64,000 nucleotides of DNA from Candidatus Saccharimonadota bacterium (GCA_017405265.1 JAFRAS010000007.1:3524-67523), one strand, 5' to 3'. Shown: positions 1 to 64,000, counted from the first letter of the stretch. The notes: generated by a model from the letters alone, not told the origin. Program-made: numbers and translations.

Positions 1-416
1 ATACGATTGACCTCCCTTACGTCACCAAAAAGCTCAACGAAATCGCCGGGAAAAAGGTCGATTTGAAAAATCTCGCCGCCTTCCTCGCCGAACATCTCCA
101 CTATTCTTGCGTCGGTATCATCGTCGGCGGAAAACTCTACTCCTCCGACCCCACTCATTCTCTCGCTCGTCCCGAGCTCGAAGCTCTCCGCGCCCTCCCC
201 TCGCCGAAATCCGGCCTCTGGCAATCTCTTGATCCCGCGAAGCTCTCGCCCGTTTTTGAACAAGCCGGCCTGACCGCCGTCGCCGAGTTGAAAACTCCAG
301 ACGGTCGTCGCGTGGCACAACTTCTCGTGGGTACCCCCTTGTCGAAGAGAAAGTCCGAAAAAAACCTTGCCGACCTCGAAATGATTTTGAACCTGGTTAC
401 CGCCATCATAAAATAG
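1..416 (+). CDS. 3' part of an unknown protein, possibly a GAF-like C-terminal domain; 5'-truncated by the window
   Basis: Frame is open from position 3 to TAG at 416; codon usage matches neighbouring genes. Confidence 0.55.
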   Translation, partial: TIDLPYVTKKLNEIAGKKVDLKNLAAFLAEHLHYSCVGIIVGGKLYSSDPTHSLARPELEALRALPSPKSGLWQSLDPAKLSPVFEQAGLTAVAELKTPDGRRVAQLLVGTPLSKRKSEKNLADLEMILNLVTAIIK

Positions 417-7559: not shown

Positions 7560-9008
7560 TTATATATTATTATTCGGGTTTTGTATAGGTGGATTTTGCC
7601 TCATCTGCCCTGGCGGCGCCGTCGGCGCAATCGGAACGCTCGGCGCTCCCGGCACACCCGGAGCCATCACCTGAGGCGCCGTCGGCGCATTCACCATTCC
7701 CGCCGGCATCACCGGCACCGCCATCTGTTGCCCATTCGGCACCACCGGCTGCGCCATCACGTTCGTCGTTCTCGCTGCAATCGACTCAATCATATCTTGG
7801 CTCTGCTCCGCTACTCGCCGCTTTTCATATTCGTCCGGCGTCAGCCTCGGCAGGGAAAGATAGAACGTTGACCCCTCCCCGAGCATCGACTCCGCCCAAA
7901 CCTTCCCGCCCATCGACTCAGCTCGGAGTTTCACGATATACAGCCCGAGCCCCGTGCCCCCAATCGTCCGCGTGTCCGAATTGTCCGCGCGATAAAACTT
8001 CTGGAACACGTGCGCGAGGTCGTCCTGCGAAATCCCAATCCCCGAATCCGTCACGTTAATCAGCACCCTGTCCCCGTCCCCAAGCAAATTCACCCACACC
8101 GACCCCCCAGCCTTCGTGTATTTAATCGCATTCTCGATATAATTCGCCATAATTTCGGATAAAAAGTTCACGTCCACATTACTATATAATATCTGTTCCA
8201 CCCTCTGCCCCTTCCCACCGGCCCCGAACCCATACTTCAACCCCTTTTCTTCGCATTTATGCTGATAGCCGTCCGCAATCTGTTTCACTACCGTCGAAAT
8301 GTCTGTCGCGCGCATCTTCGGCTTCATCCGCCCGTCGCTCAGCTTCGTCGTATCGAGCAAATCCTGGAACAATTTCCCGAGATGTTGCGACGATTCGTGC
8401 GCCTGTGTAAGATATTTTCGCGCCCTGTCGTCAATCGTTGCCGTCTGCGGATTCATCGCGAGACCGAGGAACCCCTCAATCGACGCCACTGGCGTTCGCA
8501 TCTCGTGCGACGCCGTCGAAACAAACTCCGCCTGTTCATTTTCCTCCGCGAGCTCCCGCGTAATGTCCCGAAAAGTTACGATTTTATACCCATGCATCCC
8601 CTCTGTCGGGCTAATCACGAGCGCAATCGGCGTCCTCTTGTCCCCCGCCGAAACGAGCATCAGCGTCCGGTCTTGAATAATTTCATTCTGGTGCAAAGCC
8701 GCCTGAATCGGCGACTCCTCCGGGCTAATCGACTGCCCATTTTTATCCGCGAGTAGCACAATTCTCCACGCTTCCGCCCCAATCACCTCCTCCGGTCGAA
8801 AACCGGTGAGCGTCATCCCCGCCGGATTCATATAACGAATTATCCCGCGCCCGTCCATCATCATCACTCCCTCATGAATAGACTTCAGCGCCGTCATCGC
8901 CATCTCGGCGGCCTGGTCGCGCTCGGTCGGCTCGACAAACTCAATCCCCGACGCAATCACGCCTCCGTTATATCCGCTAACTTTTTGCTTACGTTTAAAT
9001 AGGCCCAT
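7560..9008 (-). CDS. PAS-domain sensor histidine kinase
   Basis: H-box ASHEMRTP, ENAIKYT, DSGIGI, GGTGLGL. Confidence 0.93.
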   Translation of the reverse strand: MGLFKRKQKVSGYNGGVIASGIEFVEPTERDQAAEMAMTALKSIHEGVMMMDGRGIIRYMNPAGMTLTGFRPEEVIGAEAWRIVLLADKNGQSISPEESPIQAALHQNEIIQDRTLMLVSAGDKRTPIALVISPTEGMHGYKIVTFRDITRELAEENEQAEFVSTASHEMRTPVASIEGFLGLAMNPQTATIDDRARKYLTQAHESSQHLGKLFQDLLDTTKLSDGRMKPKMRATDISTVVKQIADGYQHKCEEKGLKYGFGAGGKGQRVEQILYSNVDVNFLSEIMANYIENAIKYTKAGGSVWVNLLGDGDRVLINVTDSGIGISQDDLAHVFQKFYRADNSDTRTIGGTGLGLYIVKLRAESMGGKVWAESMLGEGSTFYLSLPRLTPDEYEKRRVAEQSQDMIESIAARTTNVMAQPVVPNGQQMAVPVMPAGMVNAPTAPQVMAPGVPGAPSVPIAPTAPPGQMRQNPPIQNPNNNI

Positions 9009-13569: not shown

Positions 13570-14853
13570 ATGTTTATCGATCAGGCGAAAGTGTATGTAA
13601 AAGCAGGCAAAGGTGGCAACGGTGCCATCTCTTTTCGCCGTGAAATCTATATCCCGAAAGGCGGCCCGGACGGTGGCGACGGTGGCCGTGGTGGCTCGGT
13701 AATTTTCAAGGCTGACAACAATGCTGACACTCTGGAAGATTTCCGCTACAATCCGAAACTCATCGCCGAAGACGGTCGCCCCGGCTCCGGCACTCGCTCT
13801 TCTGGTCGCTCCGGCGCCGACCTGATCGTGAAAGTCCCCCTCGGTACCAGCGTTTTGAGAGACGGGAAACTCATCGCCGACCTCGTGAAAAACGGCGAAA
13901 CTGCCGTGATCGCGAAGGGCGGCTCCGGTGGCTACGGCAACGCCCATTTCAAGTCCTCAACCCGCCAGACCCCGACAATTGCCGAACTCGGCGAACCGGG
14001 CGAAGAATTCGAAGCGACTCTCGAATTGAAACTCATCGCCGACGTTGGTCTTGTCGGCCTCCCGAACGCCGGAAAATCCACTTTTCTCTCCGTTGTCTCT
14101 TCCGCCCGCCCGAAAATCGCGAATTACCCCTTCACCACTCTCGTCCCGATGCTCGGTGTCGCAAAAGTTGACGACCACGAGCTCTTAATCGCCGACATCC
14201 CCGGCCTCATCGAAGGCGCGAGCGAGGGAAAGGGCCTCGGCCACGATTTTCTCCGCCACGTTTCCCGTACCGCTGTCATTCTCCACCTCATCGACGTTTA
14301 TAACGACGACGCCGGCCAGGCCTACAAAACGATTAGAACCGAGCTGAAAAAATACGGCGACCTCGCCAAAAAGCCCGAAATTATCGCCCTGACGAAATGC
14401 GAAGGCCTCTCCGAGGATATTCTTGCCCTCCAGATTAAATCCATCAAAAAGCATGCGCGAAACGCCCGCATTTTCACTATCTCCTCCCCCGCCCACCAGG
14501 GAATCACCGAACTCCTCCGCGAATTATATACAACCGTTCGCGACGTTCGGGTCCTGCCTCCTGAAGATTCTCATGATGCCCGGGTGGTGTCGCCGGAGGG
14601 GTCCCAAAAATCGCCTCGCAATGCAATAGATGCTCGGGTGACTCCGTCGGAAAGGCTCCCAAAATCGGCCCGCAACGAAGTGAGGACACGATTTTGGGAA
14701 GGAGACGGAGGCAGGACCCGAGCATCGATATCTTTTTCGGGAGACGGAGGCAGGACCCGAACGCCAGAAAGCGCTTTGCCTACCATTTCTCTGAAGCCTG
14801 CCAAAAAACACCACCGCGAACGCTACTCACTTTACCCCGACGAAGACGAATAA
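13570..14853 (+). CDS. obgE: Obg/CgtA GTPase
   Basis: Gly-rich Obg fold, GLPNAGKST, YPFTT, DIPG; atypical C-terminal tail. Confidence 0.97.
   Translation: MFIDQAKVYVKAGKGGNGAISFRREIYIPKGGPDGGDGGRGGSVIFKADNNADTLEDFRYNPKLIAEDGRPGSGTRSSGRSGADLIVKVPLGTSVLRDGKLIADLVKNGETAVIAKGGSGGYGNAHFKSSTRQTPTIAELGEPGEEFEATLELKLIADVGLVGLPNAGKSTFLSVVSSARPKIANYPFTTLVPMLGVAKVDDHELLIADIPGLIEGASEGKGLGHDFLRHVSRTAVILHLIDVYNDDAGQAYKTIRTELKKYGDLAKKPEIIALTKCEGLSEDILALQIKSIKKHARNARIFTISSPAHQGITELLRELYTTVRDVRVLPPEDSHDARVVSPEGSQKSPRNAIDARVTPSERLPKSARNEVRTRFWEGDGGRTRASISFSGDGGRTRTPESALPTISLKPAKKHHRERYSLYPDEDE
14544..14763. repeat. Nested palindromic/direct-repeat insert in obg 3' end, family C
   Basis: 18-bp perfect IR 14544-14561/14746-14763; inner IR 14629-14639/14716-14726; 21-bp DR at 14701 and 14740. 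Confidence 0.9.
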
Positions 14854-14982
14854 TTTCCGGCGCTTACCCCTGTATTCCCGAACACTTCGGGAATATTTTT
14901 TGCTTTTGTCAACCCCAATCCCCGCCACAATTCCCGAAAAAGTCAATATTGACAATTATTTTGCTCGTGCTAAAATAGAGTT

Positions 14983-15072
14983 ACAATTTGAGCATGAACT
15001 GACGTTGAGAGATGCTCAAATTATGTGGAAAAGAAACAGAGATGGCGTGGGTAAACCGCGCCGTTTCATTTT
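14983..15072 (+). ncRNA. Candidate small RNA
   Basis: TTGACA(14949)-16bp-TAAAAT promoter, hairpin AATTTGAGCAT/ATGCTCAAATT, then a terminator-like hairpin; no credible ORF. Confidence 0.45.
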
Positions 15073-15102: not shown

Positions 15103-17775
15103 ATGAATAGATTAGACTCCTACCACGAATTTATCAAAAAATACCCCGATTTCACCTTCGAATCTTATTCTTACGACCTAAAAACCGACCATCTCGACCT
15201 CTCTTTTTGTTTTAAAATCGACAATCTCGCCGAATTTCGCCCCTCTTGGCGCTTTCCGCGTAGCAAAAACACCGAAATTGACGAAAAAGTCTTAAACCGC
15301 CTCGTCCTGAACCTCGGTCTCGCCGAGTCGATGTCCTACTGGAAAGCGACCTGCTCCCCGAATTTTCACGTCGAAGCCGGCCCCGTCGCCGACATTTCTT
15401 GGTGGTCTAAACAATTCAAAAACGGTCTCGCCGAATTTTTCTACCGAAACGGACTAATAAATAAGACAAAGCCCATCAATTTTATCGCCGACTCCGACAG
15501 CTCTCACCGCCCGTCCCCGAGCCGCAACCAAGATTCCGTCCTCGTCCCCGTCGGCGGAGGAAAAGATTCTGTCGTTTCTCTGGAGCTCCTAAAAACCACC
15601 AAAAAATCCATCCACCCCTTTGTTATTAACCCGAAAGACGTCCACGAAAACGTCCTGAGTATCGCCGGCCTCGAGAAAAACCTCCTTGCCGCCGAGCGCA
15701 AAATCGACCCGAAGCTCCTCGAGCTGAACGACCGAGGCTTCTTAAACGGCCACACTCCCTTCTCTCTCCTCGTCGCCTTCGCGAGCTCCCTCGCTGCTTA
15801 CCTTAACGGCATCGAAGACATCGCTCTCTCGAACGAGTCCTCCGCCAACGAAAAAACCGCCGAAATCGCCGGCCAAAGCGTCAACCACCAATATTCCAAA
15901 TCCCTCGAATTCGAAAAAGATTTCCGCGCGTACATCGGCTCCGCCACCGGCGCGACCGTGAACTATTTCTCACTCCTTCGCCCCCTCGAAGACACCGCCA
16001 TCGCCGCCCTCTTCGCCGAGCACAAGGAATATTTTGACGCTTTCCGCTCCTGCAACCTCGGCTCGAAAGAATCCCCCTGGGTCTGGTGCAAAAATTGCCC
16101 GAAATGCCTCTTTACGAACCTCATCTTGGCCCCCTTCACCACTCTCGAGGAAAGAAAACGCATCTTCGGTGCCGACCTCTTCGCCGACGCCTCGCTTCTG
16201 CCCATTTTCAAACAACTCATCGGTGACGCCCCCGAAAAGCCCTTCGAATGTGTCGGCACCGTCGCCGAGTCCTACCTCGCCGCCTACGCCGCCTTAAAAA
16301 AACACGAATATAAATCCCTCCCGCCCCTCCTCGAATATTTCGAAAAAACCCACACCGGCGAGGGTGACGACGAAAGAAAAATCCCCTACTTCGCCCTCCA
16401 CCTCTCCTCTTTCGCCCCCGAGCACAACCTCCCCTTTGAATACGAAAAACTGATGAACTCCGCCTACCCCACCCTCTTTCGCGCCTACTTAAAATACAAT
16501 ATCTCAGGCAAATCCGTCTGTGTCCTGGGTCTCGGTCGCGAGGGAAAATCCACTTTAAAAATGCTCGAATCTTTGAAAAATTATAAATCCCTGACCGTCG
16601 CCGACGACAATTTCCCGAAAGATTTCGACAAAAAGGCTTACAAAACCTGCGACATTAAAACCGCTTTAAAAAATCACTACGACCTCTACTTAAAATCCCC
16701 CGGCGTCGCCTCCGATTTCTGGACCAACTCCGAAACCAACCTTTTCCTCGAATTTTACCGCAAGCGCGTCATCGGCATCACCGGCACGAAAGGAAAATCC
16801 ACCACCGCCTCCCTGATGTATCACGTCTTAAAAGAAACGGGGAAAGACGTCGTCCTGGGCGGCAACATCGGCGTCCCTGTTTTCGACCTCGTCGATAAAA
16901 TCGACTCCGACACCATCATCGTCCTCGAACTCTCCTGTCACCAACTCGAATATCTCGACGCCTCCCCGAATATCGCCGTATTAACCAACCTCTATTCCGA
17001 CCACCTCGACCGCTACAAAACCGTCGAAAAATATCACGAAGTAAAAAGCCACATCTATAAATATCAAACCGAAGACAGCGGCTTTTTCATCACCGAAGAT
17101 GTTAACCGAAACGAGCTCGGCCCGAACGTTAACTACCTCCTGGTCCCCACTCCCCCGAAAGAAATCATGAAATACACGAAGCTGACCGGCGACCACTACC
17201 GCGCCGACCTCGGCCTCGTTGATGCCGTCGTTTCCGTCCTCGGCATTCCCATGAAAGAATGCCTAGACGCCTTCAAATCCTTCAAACCCCTCCCCCACCG
17301 CCTCGAGCACGTTTTGAAAAAAGACGGCGTCGATTATTACGACGACTCCATCTCCACCACCCCCGAAACTGCCATCGCCGCCTGCGAAGCCGTCGAATCC
17401 CGCAACTTGAAGTACCTTTTGGTCGGCGGTCTCGACCGCGGCATCGATTACGAGCCTCTCGAAGATTACCTCTTGAATCACTCCGAAGTCGAGCCGATTT
17501 TCTTCTCCGACGCCGGGCGGCGCATCTTTGAGGAAATGTACGAAAAAACCGGCAACATCTACGCTCACGCCGACAACCTCCCCGTCGCCCTCCGCATCGC
17601 CGTCGCCTCCGCCGGCCGCGGCTCCGCCGTCATCCTCTCCCCCGCCGCCGCCTCTTATAACGAATTCAAAAATTTCGAAGAACGCGGCGACTTCTTCCAA
17701 AAATTCGTCCGCGAAACCAACAAATCCGACCTCCCGCCCGACGAATATTCTCTGTCCTACGAACCTGAATTCTGA
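15103..17775 (+). CDS. murL-murD: Fusion of MurL-like UDP-MurNAc-L-Ala-L-Glu epimerase and MurD-type ligase
   Basis: N half: GGGKDS, NGHTPFS, SNESSANE, NHQYSKS, FRSCN, WCKNCPKC, KPFECVG; C half: GLGREG, GITGTKGKSTT, ELS, DHLDRY, HRLE, SPAAASYNEFKNFEERG. Confidence 0.88.
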   Translation: MNRLDSYHEFIKKYPDFTFESYSYDLKTDHLDLSFCFKIDNLAEFRPSWRFPRSKNTEIDEKVLNRLVLNLGLAESMSYWKATCSPNFHVEAGPVADISWWSKQFKNGLAEFFYRNGLINKTKPINFIADSDSSHRPSPSRNQDSVLVPVGGGKDSVVSLELLKTTKKSIHPFVINPKDVHENVLSIAGLEKNLLAAERKIDPKLLELNDRGFLNGHTPFSLLVAFASSLAAYLNGIEDIALSNESSANEKTAEIAGQSVNHQYSKSLEFEKDFRAYIGSATGATVNYFSLLRPLEDTAIAALFAEHKEYFDAFRSCNLGSKESPWVWCKNCPKCLFTNLILAPFTTLEERKRIFGADLFADASLLPIFKQLIGDAPEKPFECVGTVAESYLAAYAALKKHEYKSLPPLLEYFEKTHTGEGDDERKIPYFALHLSSFAPEHNLPFEYEKLMNSAYPTLFRAYLKYNISGKSVCVLGLGREGKSTLKMLESLKNYKSLTVADDNFPKDFDKKAYKTCDIKTALKNHYDLYLKSPGVASDFWTNSETNLFLEFYRKRVIGITGTKGKSTTASLMYHVLKETGKDVVLGGNIGVPVFDLVDKIDSDTIIVLELSCHQLEYLDASPNIAVLTNLYSDHLDRYKTVEKYHEVKSHIYKYQTEDSGFFITEDVNRNELGPNVNYLLVPTPPKEIMKYTKLTGDHYRADLGLVDAVVSVLGIPMKECLDAFKSFKPLPHRLEHVLKKDGVDYYDDSISTTPETAIAACEAVESRNLKYLLVGGLDRGIDYEPLEDYLLNHSEVEPIFFSDAGRRIFEEMYEKTGNIYAHADNLPVALRIAVASAGRGSAVILSPAAASYNEFKNFEERGDFFQKFVRETNKSDLPPDEYSLSYEPEF

Positions 17776-62693: not shown

Positions 62694-64000
62694 TGAAAAA
62701 ATACGAAATCACCATCGGCATCGAATGCCACGTCCAACTCGCGACTAAAACGAAGTTATTCTCCGAGGTCGATAACGACGCCCGCGGAAAGTCCCCGAAC
62801 TCTTGCGTCTCCCCTGTCGATTACGCCCTCCCCGGCATGCTCCCGCGTTTGAATAAAGCCGCCGTCGAAATGGCCGTGACCGCCGGTCTCGCCCTGAACT
62901 CGACCATTAACTTAAAATCCCGCTTCGACCGGAAGCACTATTTCTATCCCGACCTCCCGAAAGGCTACCAAATCACCCAGCTCTACTCTCCGATTATCGG
63001 TCCGGGTTACGTCGAACTCCCCTCCGGCACGAAAGTCCGCATCGAGCACGCCCATCTCGAAGAAGACGCTGGAAAACTCACTCACTTCGACACTTATTCT
63101 CTCGTGGACTTAAACCGCGCCGGTACTCCTCTAATCGAAATCGTCTCGATGCCCGACATCCACTCCGCCGAAGACGCCCGCGACTACTGCAAAGAACTCT
63201 GGCGCCTCATGACCTATTCCGGCGTCTGTCTTGGCGACCTCTATAACGGCAACATGCGCTTCGACGTCAACATCTCCCTCGCCGAACCGGGCGCCGAAAA
63301 ACTCGGCACTCGCGCCGAGATAAAGAACCTGAACTCTTTCCGCTCCGTCGAGCACGCTGTCGCCTACGAATACGAACGCCAGTCGAAACTCCTCGACCGT
63401 GGCGAAAAAGTGAAACAAGAAACCCGCGGCTTCTCCGACGCCACCGGAAAAACCACCTCCCAGCGCTCAAAAGAGGAGTCTCAGGATTACCGCTACATGC
63501 CCGAGCCCGACCTCCCGCCCCTGAACCTCCCCGAGTCCCTTGTCGAAGAAAAGAAAAAGTCTCTCCCGCTCTTGCCAAGTGACTATCGTCGTATGTTCGG
63601 AGGTCTTATCCCGGAGAACATTCTCGAGATTCTCTTAGATTACCCTTCGCTCATGCAAAAACTCGCCGAAGTTGACAAAAAATTTGCGACAAAAGTCGCG
63701 AACCTCTTCTCCTCTGTCCTCCTTGCCGAAGAAAACGCGAGCCTCTTAAACGACCCTCTCCCGAGCAAAGACCAACTCGAGGATTTGATTTCTATGCAAG
63801 AAAACGGCGACCTCTCTTCGACCGCCGTAAAATCCGTTTTCTTAAAATTCTTTGACAAAGAAATGCATTTTAAGTCCACCGAAACTATTGCGAAAGAACT
63901 GAACCTAATCCAAGAAAACGACACTGATACTCTCGAAAAAATCGTCGAAGACGTCGTGAGCGACCCCGCCTGCGAAAAAGCCGTCGCCGACTTCAAGTCC
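62693..64000 (+). CDS. gatB: Asp/Glu-tRNA amidotransferase subunit B, 3'-truncated by the window
   Basis: MKKYEITIGIECHVQL.TKTKLFS, FDRKHYFYPDLPKGYQITQ, DYRYMPEPDLP read directly from the DNA. Confidence 0.96.
   Translation, partial: MKKYEITIGIECHVQLATKTKLFSEVDNDARGKSPNSCVSPVDYALPGMLPRLNKAAVEMAVTAGLALNSTINLKSRFDRKHYFYPDLPKGYQITQLYSPIIGPGYVELPSGTKVRIEHAHLEEDAGKLTHFDTYSLVDLNRAGTPLIEIVSMPDIHSAEDARDYCKELWRLMTYSGVCLGDLYNGNMRFDVNISLAEPGAEKLGTRAEIKNLNSFRSVEHAVAYEYERQSKLLDRGEKVKQETRGFSDATGKTTSQRSKEESQDYRYMPEPDLPPLNLPESLVEEKKKSLPLLPSDYRRMFGGLIPENILEILLDYPSLMQKLAEVDKKFATKVANLFSSVLLAEENASLLNDPLPSKDQLEDLISMQENGDLSSTAVKSVFLKFFDKEMHFKSTETIAKELNLIQENDTDTLEKIVEDVVSDPACEKAVADFKS

What the first reader, a model, noticed from the sequence alone, without database searches (positions are those of the whole stretch)
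14544..14763. Obg C-terminal tail built from nested palindromic elements
After the G domain, about 73 codons consist of an 18-bp perfect inverted repeat enclosing a second hairpin, a degenerate duplicate (14576-14621 vs 14629-14675) and a 21-bp direct repeat. This looks like repeated insertion of a further element family into itself with the frame of an essential GTPase kept open.
Basis: partly seen in the sequence, partly recalled or inferred. Interest (0 to 1): 0.75.

Follow-up and report, generated by a model that had tools for sequence, protein, structure and literature searches.

The report
Hairpin repeats nested inside Obg linker
The odd tail of this essential GTPase gene is one whole and several partial copies of a selfish DNA hairpin repeat that tiny gut Saccharibacteria carry inside many housekeeping genes; it is read through as a floppy peptide and differs by whole repeat arms between strains sampled today.

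Summary

**What it is**
- The middle hairpin (14628-14727) is a full-length member of a hairpin repeat family that I defined only from other genomes.
- The family is about 85-95 nt long, with invariant CGGGTG...CAGGACCCG cores, conserved bulges and covarying stems.
- It occurs in 62 of 151 genomes of the genus, with weaker relatives across the order.
- About half of the copies examined lie in frame inside housekeeping genes: ArgS, IleS, PriA, TyrS, YchF, MnmA, ExoI, TopA.
- Around the complete copy sit an orphan left arm, a duplicated right arm and an inverted right-arm fragment. The last two form the 18-bp perfect palindrome.
- This is the only family copy in this genome.

**Context**
- The "tail" is really the hypervariable linker after the G domain.
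- This clade's Obg has lost its C-terminal OCT domain and keeps only a short conserved end.
- Three natural alleles differ by -39 and -42 nt, all in frame.
- No transposase was found.

**Verdict**
It is an RPE-like selfish repeat, read through as a disordered peptide. I found no paper describing such repeats in Saccharibacteria in the held library. Earlier agents of this scan reported other in-frame hairpin families in this genus, but not this one.

The parts
13570..14853 (+). obg gene (427 aa). It has the GTP1/OBG fold and the G domain, then a linker and a short conserved end, and no OCT domain.
   Evidence: ORF. Pfam PF01018 and PF01926 match. PF09269 is absent from the protein (domain column) and from the whole genome.
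14541..14766 (+). Composite hairpin-repeat insert filling the linker (about residues 325-399), read in frame.
   Evidence: Repeats, folds. The linker is 83 aa here, against 17-21 aa outside the genus and 22 to about 36 aa in the closest OCT-less relatives.
14544..14561 (-). 'La': inverted fragment of a right arm, and the left arm of the 18-bp perfect palindrome.
   Evidence: The right-arm HMM matches 14548-14559 on the minus strand (E 0.02 within the locus). It is 100% complementary to 14746-14763, including the bases that are an unpaired bulge in normal copies.
14575..14621 (+). 'Lb': orphan left arm. Its core, 14582-14601, is GGGTGGTGTCGCCGGAGGGG, the subfamily-1 consensus. No partner with a matching helix 2 is present.
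   Evidence: Left-arm HMM E 1e-4. The 20-mer GGGTGGTGTCGCCGGAGGGG (14582-14601) matches copies in G086, G047, G123, G044 and G107 exactly; BLAST matches over 14581-14610 to copies in other genomes are 88-100% identical.
14628..14727 (+). 'Lc-Ra': the one complete family copy (subfamily 2, GGGTGAC...GGCAGGACCC). Helix 3 is 14657-14667 / 14689-14699.
   Evidence: CM R1 full-length hit, 54.7 bits, E 3.5e-10, with no non-canonical pairs flagged. It is the only hit in the genome.
14668..14688 (+). Apical loop carrying the module CCGCAACGAAGTGAGGA, shared with a copy inside topA of another species (G166).
   Evidence: G166:C55, 81% over 52 nt, E 1.3e-5. Aligned rows. The host gene is topA by TIGR01051.
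14740..14763 (+). 'Rb': second right arm. It is a 21-nt exact direct copy of 14701-14721 and the right arm of the 18-bp palindrome.
   Evidence: Right-arm HMM E 0.0023. Its helix-2 half, GACGGAG, is the same as in Ra.
14722..14760 (+). 39-nt unit missing in natural allele B (the 414-aa Obg, which lacks ASISFSGDGGRTR). It equals one repeat period.
   Evidence: P0123 compared with P0121.
14727..14774 (+). 48 nt replaced by 6 nt (AGTCGA) in allele C, seen in a strain about 92% identical. That allele lacks Rb and stays in frame.
   Evidence: X7 contig joint 14726 to 14775 (tables 5, 5c and 8).
14776..14850 (+). Conserved short C-terminal end, LPTISLKPAKKHHRERYSLYPDEDE, which replaces the OCT domain in this clade.
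   Evidence: P0002 and P0003 share ...ISLKP..K.HR.RY.LYPD... In other species LP.I.L is the start of the OCT domain.
14873..14901 (+). Terminator-like hairpin plus T run after the obg stop codon.
   Evidence: Inverted repeat I5, followed by TTTTTT in the sequence. Inference only.

Best explanation
The region is selfish or neutral repeat DNA, not a purpose-built part of Obg.

**Setting.** In this lineage of small-genome Saccharibacteria, Obg has lost its C-terminal OCT domain. It keeps a hypervariable linker followed by a short conserved end.

**What filled the linker.** A copy of a dispersed, structure-conserved hairpin repeat landed in that linker. The repeat is about 85-95 nt, with invariant CGGGTG / CAGGACCCG helix ends, conserved unpaired GGAGGGGG, AGGAG and (A/G)CAGG, and a free-varying but always paired helix 2. 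I call it family C here.

**Later growth.** The locus then grew by further arm-level events:
- an orphan left arm, either a remnant of a second copy that the complete copy now sits inside or an old local duplicate;
- a recent direct duplication of the right arm;
- a recent inverted copy of the same right-arm core, which makes the perfect 18-bp palindrome and is best explained by template switching on the hairpin.

**Reading and turnover.** The whole composite is translated as about 78 residues predicted to be disordered. Selection keeps only the frame, so that the conserved end is made. Arms are still being lost, and probably gained, by recombination or slippage between the direct repeats, which gives in-frame alleles in living populations.

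**Shown:** family membership, arm inventory, uniqueness in this genome, allele series, OCT loss, low-confidence (disordered-looking) prediction for the tail.
**Inferred:** order of events, the template-switch origin of the palindrome, nesting, neutrality. How the family moves is unknown.
For: **The family is real and was defined independently of this locus.**
- 19 copies from 13 other genomes align, with 13 of 23 pairs showing compensatory changes.
- On 49 distinct copies, 97.2% of cells are paired and 231 cells show double changes, against 70 in shuffles; slid controls reach 34-53% pairing.
- The model hits 14628-14727 full length at 54.7 bits, the only hit in G000.
- 62 of 151 genus genomes carry 1-25 copies. 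Full-length but weaker relatives occur in other genera of the order.

**It behaves as DNA, not as a peptide or RNA module.**
- 27 of 49 copies are spanned by long ORFs, in both orientations and several phases.
- Hosts checked by NCBIfam are ArgS, IleS, PriA, TyrS, YchF, MnmA, ExoI and TopA.
- Most copies are stop-free in 4-5 of the 6 frames.

**Spread between genes and species.**
- This copy shares a rare loop module with a topA copy in G166, and near-identical translated arms with an argS copy in G013.

**Arm inventory at the locus:**

**The insert is lineage-specific.**
- The closest OCT-less Obgs have linkers of 22 and about 36 aa, against 83 aa here.
- No relative's Obg locus holds family C.

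**Assembly is sound.**
- The identical protein is seen on 21 contigs from several sources.
- Logan contigs of two samples span 14300-15000 with 0 differences.

**Allele series:** -39 nt in P0123 and -42 nt net in X7, both in frame.

**Disorder:** residues 328-427 have pLDDT 27-43 and no secondary structure.
Against: - No copy of the family other than this one exists in this 85.6%-complete genome, so insertion here is inferred from other genomes, not seen.
- No empty-site DNA from a close relative could be fetched, so the insertion boundaries and any target duplication are unknown.
- The orphan left arm shares its unusual outer stem (GATGCyC) and loop start with the complete copy. That fits local duplication at least as well as a second insertion.
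- The AlphaFold model rests on only 30 sequences (mean pLDDT 54), so disorder is suggested, not shown.
- Neutrality is an inference. An R/G/S/P-rich tail on a ribosome-associated GTPase that has lost its OCT domain could have gained a role.
- Only contigs were laid on the region, not raw reads.
Confidence: 0.8

Rival explanations
1. Purely local origin. The whole structure arose in place by slippage and fold-back (quasipalindrome) copying of the gene's own linker, with no mobile repeat involved.
For: - Other species' Obg linkers form long rods whose outer stems use the conserved coding flanks REL.. / ..(V/I)PTI, and these are not family C.
- The motif is unique in this genome.
- The 18-bp palindrome itself looks like a template-switch product.
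Against: - The central hairpin matches, over its full length and with all pairs kept, a model built from 13 other genomes.
- It shares a 17-nt loop module with a topA copy elsewhere.
- Independent local origin of the same 85 positions is not credible.
Confidence: 0.04
2. Adaptive protein feature. After OCT loss, the repeat-encoded R/G/S/P-rich peptide was co-opted as a new functional Obg tail, for example for RNA or ribosome contact, and is kept by selection on the peptide.
For: - The frame is preserved in three alleles.
- The tail is basic and low in complexity.
- The clade has lost the OCT domain, which in other bacteria is part of Obg.
Against: - The closest OCT-less relatives lack this peptide and have unrelated linkers.
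- Alleles drop 13-14 residues freely.
- Single-residue variants hit conserved repeat positions (P0001 F>C, P0122 R>W).
- The same DNA is read in other frames and on the other strand in other genes.
- Frame preservation is explained by the conserved end downstream.
Confidence: 0.08
3. Functional nucleic-acid structure. The roughly -117 kcal/mol fold near the 3' end of the obg mRNA (or the DNA cruciform) regulates obg expression, mRNA stability or replication.
For: - Very stable fold.
- Family-wide conservation of unpaired motifs and of pairing shows that something reads the structure.
Against: - Copies sit in both orientations relative to host genes and also between genes, so no single RNA strand is conserved.
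- Alleles lacking a whole arm coexist.
- Relatives' obg genes lack it.
- No Rfam match.
Confidence: 0.06
4. Assembly artefact: a chimeric or collapsed repeat created by the assembler.
For: Repeats and palindromes can mislead short-read assemblers. Only contigs, not raw reads, were available.
Against: - All repeats are shorter than usual assembly k-mers (21 nt or less for exact repeats).
- The identical protein is on 21 contigs from NCBI, Logan and ENA.
- Two samples' Logan contigs (18.5 and 14.4 kb) match 701 nt with 0 differences.
- Two further in-frame alleles exist in other assemblies.
Confidence: 0.02

Closest known systems
Rickettsia palindromic elements (RPE-1 to RPE-10; Ogata et al., as summarised in PMC10969869)
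   Same: - Dispersed palindromic repeats of about 100-150 bp in a reduced genome.
- About half lie in frame inside unrelated housekeeping genes.
- They are tolerated as extra peptide segments.
- No transposase of their own is known.
   Different: - Different phylum and no sequence relation tested or expected.
- RPEs are reported to encode a conserved peptide. Family C is read in several frames and on both strands.
- Family C has invariant helix ends and bulges but a free-varying helix 2.
- This locus is a pile-up of arms, with an allele series in living populations.
REP / BIME clusters and REPINs mobilised by RAYT (TnpA-REP, Y1 transposases); established knowledge
   Same: - Short structure-conserved hairpins with conserved asymmetry.
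- They often occur in clusters of several units in direct or inverted order.
   Different: - REPs are about 20-40 nt and extragenic.
- They depend on a RAYT gene. PF01797 is present in only 6 of 151 genus genomes, none of which is among the 62 that carry family C.
MITEs that fuse in frame or nest (ERIC, Correia/NEMIS, BOX; PMC10969869)
   Same: - Small non-autonomous repeats that can lie inside ORFs and form composite or nested arrays.
   Different: - MITEs are defined by terminal inverted repeats plus target-site duplications and a parent IS.
- None of these was seen here. The hairpin is the whole element and no parent element is known.
Quasipalindrome correction / intramolecular template switching (Ripley; Lovett; from E. 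coli and phage T4 genetics, my own knowledge)
   Same: - Converts an imperfect hairpin into a perfect one by copying one arm from the other.
- This fits the 18-bp perfect palindrome, whose left arm is the exact complement of the right arm through the normally unpaired bulge.
   Different: - It explains only the youngest layer of the locus, not the dispersed family.
- It was not demonstrated here.
Other in-frame hairpin families reported by earlier agents of this scan in the same genus ('family B' in gatA, GT4 and a baseplate-J-like gene of this window; e1-5456813, e1-5456814, e1-5456815; e1-5257376 on another genome)
   Same: - Same genus.
- Same habit of sitting in frame in the linkers of conserved genes.
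- No transposase found.
   Different: - Different sequence family. Model R1 does not hit the family B copies of this window.
- Family C has conserved termini (ACAT.. / ..AGAG) and invariant cores, rather than long site-private outer stems.

Membership tests
Family C hairpin repeat (defined here: CM R1, alignment A1/A2) | Full-length match to a covariance model built without the candidate | tested here: met
   14628-14727 (+): 54.7 bits, E 3.5e-10, model positions 1-85, no non-canonical pairs flagged. Other members score 65-99 bits.
Family C hairpin repeat (defined here: CM R1, alignment A1/A2) | Invariant CGGGTG ... (A/G)CAGGACCCG helix-1 ends, with unpaired GGA.GG and AGGAG motifs | tested here: met
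   CGGGTGAC...GGAAAGG...AAGGAG...GGCAGGACCCG appear in the aligned row. The central G-run is weakened (GGAAAGGC against GGAGGGGG).
Family C hairpin repeat (defined here: CM R1, alignment A1/A2) | Extra arms at the locus are also family arms | tested here: met
   Arm HMMs within the locus: Lb E 1e-4, Lc 0.0085, Ra 7e-5, Rb 0.0023, and La on the minus strand 0.02. La is weak and is supported mainly by exact identity to Rb.
Rickettsia palindromic elements (RPE) | Dispersed palindromic repeat inserted in frame into unrelated housekeeping ORFs | tested here: met
   This shows that it works like an RPE.
Rickettsia palindromic elements (RPE) | Sequence homology to RPE-1..10, and a conserved encoded peptide read in one frame | tested here: not met
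   Copies are read in at least four frame/strand combinations, giving different peptides. Homology to RPE sequences was not tested because no RPE sequence was at hand. The lineage is Saccharibacteria, not Rickettsia.
REP / REPIN with RAYT | Cognate Y1 (RAYT) transposase gene in carrier genomes | tested here: not met
   PF01797 is present in 6 of 151 genus genomes (G023, G053, G067, G070, G076, G094). None of these is among the 62 family C carriers, and G000 has none.
MITE | Terminal inverted repeats with target-site duplication, and a parent IS | tested here: inconclusive
The ArgS comparison is too diverged to place boundaries. No parent element was seen.
Integron attC site | Adjacent integron integrase and cassette array; R/L box consensus | not tested
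   It resembles attC only in being a hairpin with conserved extrahelical bases. Its location inside housekeeping ORFs argues against membership.
Obg/CgtA GTPase | N-terminal GTP1/OBG fold plus G domain | tested here: met
   PF01018 at 198 bits and PF01926 at 85 bits.
Obg/CgtA GTPase | C-terminal OCT domain (PF09269), as in all other Saccharibacteria Obg proteins examined | tested here: not met
   PF09269 is absent from this protein and from P0002 and P0003. There is no PF09269 hit anywhere in G000 and no tblastn remnant.
Known RNA families (Rfam 15) | Match to any curated covariance model | tested here: not met
   No hit at E up to 1 on the locus or on eight loci holding family copies, apart from tRNAs and chance matches elsewhere in those loci.

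The most novel reading that the evidence does not exclude
Family C is a structure-specific hairpin element, without a transposase of its own, that is conserved across a whole order of Saccharibacteria. Some still-unknown host or mobile enzyme would recognise it through its invariant helix ends and bulges. It would prefer to land in, or be copied next to, its own hairpins and in the disordered linkers of essential genes. On this reading, the Obg locus, with three coexisting alleles that differ by whole arms, is a live snapshot of that copying and collapsing process. Neither the enzyme nor the chemistry is known.
Probability: 0.3. Interest if true: 0.75.

Novelty: new variant of a known kind. 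Interest (0 to 1): 0.6.

Why it matters
- **Reach of the phenomenon.** In-frame palindromic repeats inside essential genes are best known from Rickettsia. Here a comparable family occurs in reduced-genome Saccharibacteria, with relatives across the order and with constraints that point to recognition by an unknown factor: invariant helix ends and bulges, and a free-varying paired helix.
- **A place to measure rates.** At the Obg locus, arm loss, arm duplication and palindrome perfection can be read from natural alleles. That makes the rates and mechanism measurable in public rumen and gut metagenomes.
- **Annotation.** Hypervariable 'tails' and linkers of conserved proteins in these genomes are often repeat DNA, not lineage-specific domains.
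- **Obg biology.** A clade of Obg proteins without the OCT domain bears on what that domain is needed for.

Tried and rejected
- **Search of 368 genus species representatives with P0003** found no close relative besides G000.
- **The single metagenome scan** returned only an ordinary OCT-bearing Obg of another species.
- **Two viral-contig pattern scans** found nothing.
- **Rfam** gave no match.
- **RAYT hypothesis rejected**.
- **Relation to the window's 'family B' hairpins rejected.** R1 does not hit them and their cores look unlike family C.
- **A split-off OCT domain or a remnant downstream was rejected**.
- **Genome-wide arm HMM searches** had too little power: E was only 0.09-3. They were informative only when restricted to the locus.
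- **ArgS filled-versus-empty comparison** was too diverged to reveal target duplications.
- **Runs X5 and X7.** X5 covered only the 3' flank. X7 is an RNA-seq library, but one 269-nt contig at depth 4 is not evidence of transcription.
- **SbcCD.** It was not detected over cut-off in G000. This fits tolerance of long palindromes, but the genome is only 85.6% complete, so I do not build on it.

Full report
**Observation**

The Obg ORF runs from 13570 to 14853 (+) and encodes 427 aa. Pfam places the GTP1/OBG fold at residues 3-155 and the G domain from residue 158 to about 318.

- an 18-nt perfect inverted repeat at 14544-14561 / 14746-14763;
- an inner 11-nt hairpin at 14657-14667 / 14689-14699;
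- a 47-nt degenerate direct repeat at 14575-14621 and 14629-14675 (72% identity);
- a 21-nt exact direct repeat at 14701-14721 and 14740-14760.

The stretch folds much better than shuffles, with z -5.5 and -6.9 on the two strands. A perfect inverted repeat of this size within 250 nt never arose in 100 simulated windows. The open frame alone is weak evidence, because all three minus-strand frames are open here too.

**The 'tail' is a linker, and this Obg has lost its OCT domain**

- In 17 other genera of the order, Obg is about 420 aa. A 17-21 aa linker joins the G domain to an OCT domain that starts LP.I.L.
- Within the genus the linker is hypervariable, at 25-69 aa.
- Here the linker is 83 aa. 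After LPTISL the protein ends with KPAKKHHRERYSLYPDEDE.
- The two closest proteins in 5.8 billion clusters are P0002 (371 aa) and P0003 (380 aa). They also lack PF09269 and share the motif ...ISLKP..K.HR.RY.LYPD... Their linkers are unrelated and only 22 and about 36 aa long.
- No OCT domain or remnant exists anywhere in this 85.6%-complete genome.

So OCT loss is a trait of the clade, the short end is conserved, and roughly 170 nt of the linker is peculiar to this species.

**The element family**

The 15-mer core occurs three times at this locus and nowhere else in the genome. A DNA search of 200 genomes of the genus, however, matched pieces of the locus at 88-100% identity.

Those places hold an 81-95 nt hairpin. 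Its consensus is ACATsGrC GGGTG.. helix 2 .. GGAGGGGG.CCCC [loop] GGGGGAGGAG .. helix 2' .. (A/G)CAGGACCC GyCsAGAG.

- Nineteen copies from 13 other genomes gave a consensus structure of 23 pairs, 13 of them with compensatory changes.
- On 49 distinct copies, 97.2% of cells pair and 231 cells show double changes, against 70 in shuffles. Slid controls pair at 34-53%. That alignment is fitted to the model.
- Helix 2 varies freely but always pairs, while the helix-1 and helix-3 ends and the bulges are invariant.
- No Rfam family matches.
- The covariance model (R1), built without this locus, hits 14628-14727 (+) over its full length at 54.7 bits, E 3.5e-10. This is the only hit in the genome.
- 62 of 151 genus genomes carry 1-25 copies.
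- Six genomes of other genera in the order carry weaker full-length relatives with the same CGGGTG...CAGGACCCG ends.

I know the organism only as a Saccharibacterium, from names that sources give to homologous Obg proteins. The genus name Candidatus Nanosyncoccus comes from earlier notes of this scan and I did not verify it.

**Behaviour of the family**

- Of 49 distinct copies in the loci I held, 27 are spanned by long ORFs, in both orientations and in several phases. They give different peptides.
- Ten hosts were checked and all pass NCBIfam cut-offs: ArgS, IleS (two sites, in two species), PriA (two species), TyrS, YchF, MnmA, exodeoxyribonuclease I and TopA.
- Most copies are free of stop codons in four or five of the six frames.
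- The remaining copies lie between genes, close to gene ends.
- In ArgS the copy sits in a linker where other species carry other, unrelated inserts.
- The Obg linkers of seven other species also fold as long rods (z -4 to -9). Their outer stems use the conserved coding flanks, but they are not family C.

Linkers of conserved proteins in this genus are therefore recurrent landing or growth sites for several hairpin families. This agrees with earlier notes of this scan on other families.

**Anatomy of the Obg composite**

Arm-specific profile HMMs, searched within the locus, find five arms:
- left arms at 14581-14601 (Lb, E 1e-4) and 14635-14651 (Lc, E 0.0085);
- right arms at 14696-14720 (Ra, E 7e-5) and 14741-14759 (Rb, E 0.0023);
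- a right-arm core on the minus strand at 14548-14559 (La, E 0.02).

The layout is therefore inverted-R, L, (L...R), R.

| Arm | What it is | Key evidence |
|---|---|---|
| Lc-Ra | The complete copy, subfamily 2 | Perfectly paired private helix 2, CTCCGTC/GACGGAG |
| Rb | A local duplicate of Ra | Same helix-2 half and 21 identical bases |
| La | Inverted right-arm fragment | Exact complement of Rb, including the bases that form an unpaired bulge in every normal copy |
| Lb | Orphan left arm, subfamily 1 | Exact subfamily-1 consensus; its helix-2 partner is absent |

The state of La is what copying one arm from the other (template switching) would give. This inverted right-arm pair is the only one among all loci I held.

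Lb shares the unusual outer stem GATGCyC and the loop start with Lc. This leaves two possibilities for Lb:
- **Nesting (about 55%).** Lb is the left half of an older copy, with the complete copy nested in its loop. The arm spacings of 54 and 39 nt fit this. So do the LLR and LLLR pile-ups in PriA of three species and the observed collapse of right arms.
- **Old local duplicate (about 45%).**

The complete copy shares a 17-nt loop module with a topA copy in G166. Its translated arms are close to those of an argS copy in G013. This ties it to a mobile sub-lineage and argues against a local origin.

**Reality and dynamics**

- The exact window protein (P0121) is recorded on 21 contigs from NCBI, Logan and ENA.
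- Logan contigs of two samples cover 14300-15000 with no difference. Both samples belong to one study, which may be the source of this genome.
- Cluster member P0123 (414 aa) lacks exactly ASISFSGDGGRTR, which is 39 nt or one repeat period.
- A 269-nt contig from another study, about 92% identical, joins 14726 to 14775 through 6 other letters. It therefore lacks Rb, a net change of -42 nt.
- All three alleles keep the frame, as expected if the conserved end must be made.
- Two single-residue variants fall in conserved repeat positions.
- An AlphaFold model from a 30-sequence alignment gives pLDDT 27-43 and no secondary structure for residues 328-427. This is suggestive only, because the mean pLDDT of the model is 54.

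**Mechanism of spread**

This remains unknown.
- Y1/RAYT transposases occur in only 6 of 151 genus genomes, and none of those carries the family.
- No copy was found on viral contigs with two patterns.
- SbcC and SbcD were not detected over cut-off in this genome. This would fit tolerance of long palindromes but is not conclusive.

**Comparison and verdict**

The nearest published analogue is the Rickettsia palindromic elements, which also sit in frame in housekeeping genes (PMC10969869). Family C works like them but is not one of them:
- it is in a different phylum;
- it has no single conserved peptide;
- it has invariant structural motifs with a free-varying helix;
- it forms arm-level pile-ups.

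I found no paper on such elements in Saccharibacteria in the held library.

Its reading is partly supported: a further element family, self-association and a preserved frame all hold. Three points need correction. The 18-bp palindrome and the 21-bp repeat are local arm copies and not element termini. The motif is unique in this genome. The 'tail' is the linker of an OCT-less Obg.

Noticed in passing
window 14776-14850; proteins P0002, P0003: A small clade of Saccharibacteria Obg proteins has lost the whole OCT domain (PF09269). It keeps instead a conserved basic-then-acidic end, ...ISLKP..K.HR.RY.LYPD(D/E).. . No OCT domain is present elsewhere in the genome.
   Followed up: partly
L009, L010, L011, L014, L016, L017, L020 (Obg linkers of other species of the genus): The whole G-domain/OCT linker folds as one long rod (z -4 to -9). 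Its outer stem is made from the conserved coding flanks (codons of REL.. pairing with codons of ..(V/I)PTI, seeded by the natural GGAATT/AATTCC palindrome). These are not family C.
   Followed up: partly
G004, G011, G012, G013, G015, G035 Obg genes: In six species the Obg match is split at query residue about 97-100 by an extra 25-40 aa inside the N-terminal OBG fold. This may be another insertion hot spot.
   Followed up: no
L122-L135 (argS of 14 species): The ArgS linker between ..AVRAKKIL and ER.L.KK.LEY carries at least four unrelated inserts in different species. ArgS open frames range from 544 to 748 aa across the genus.
   Followed up: partly
L040 (G215) and L104 (G068), ileS: Two family C copies sit at the same two positions of IleS in two species. 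They are either inherited or re-inserted at the same sites.
   Followed up: no
L039/L045 (G173:C17), positions about 1133-1225 and 1494-1586: Two nearly identical family C copies in direct order bracket a small gene of about 66 aa, rich in K/G/A, beside two tRNA genes. The upstream copy lies between a TTGACA..TATAAT promoter-like site and the start codon.
   Followed up: no
L064 (G123:C19) and L070 (G123:C42): Two copies at different loci of one genome are almost identical, including the loop and helix 2. This suggests recent copying within a genome.
   Followed up: no
window 15103-17775: An 890-aa ORF just downstream of obg has a Mur-ligase middle and C-terminal domain in its second half. Its first roughly 450 aa have no Pfam match.
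   Followed up: no
window 63216-63300 (-), 8414-8499 (-): Weak full-length matches to model R1 (18 and 16 bits, E 0.07 and 0.19). They may be decayed relatives or chance matches.
   Followed up: no
G000 whole genome: No SbcC or SbcD homologue over the NCBIfam cut-offs. If truly absent, that would help explain why so many long palindromes persist.
   Followed up: partly
window 14673-14978, run X7: A poly(A)-selected RNA-seq library of a gut sample from another study holds a 269-nt contig of a strain about 92% identical, covering the hairpin and the obg 3' end. This is too thin to call transcription.
   Followed up: no
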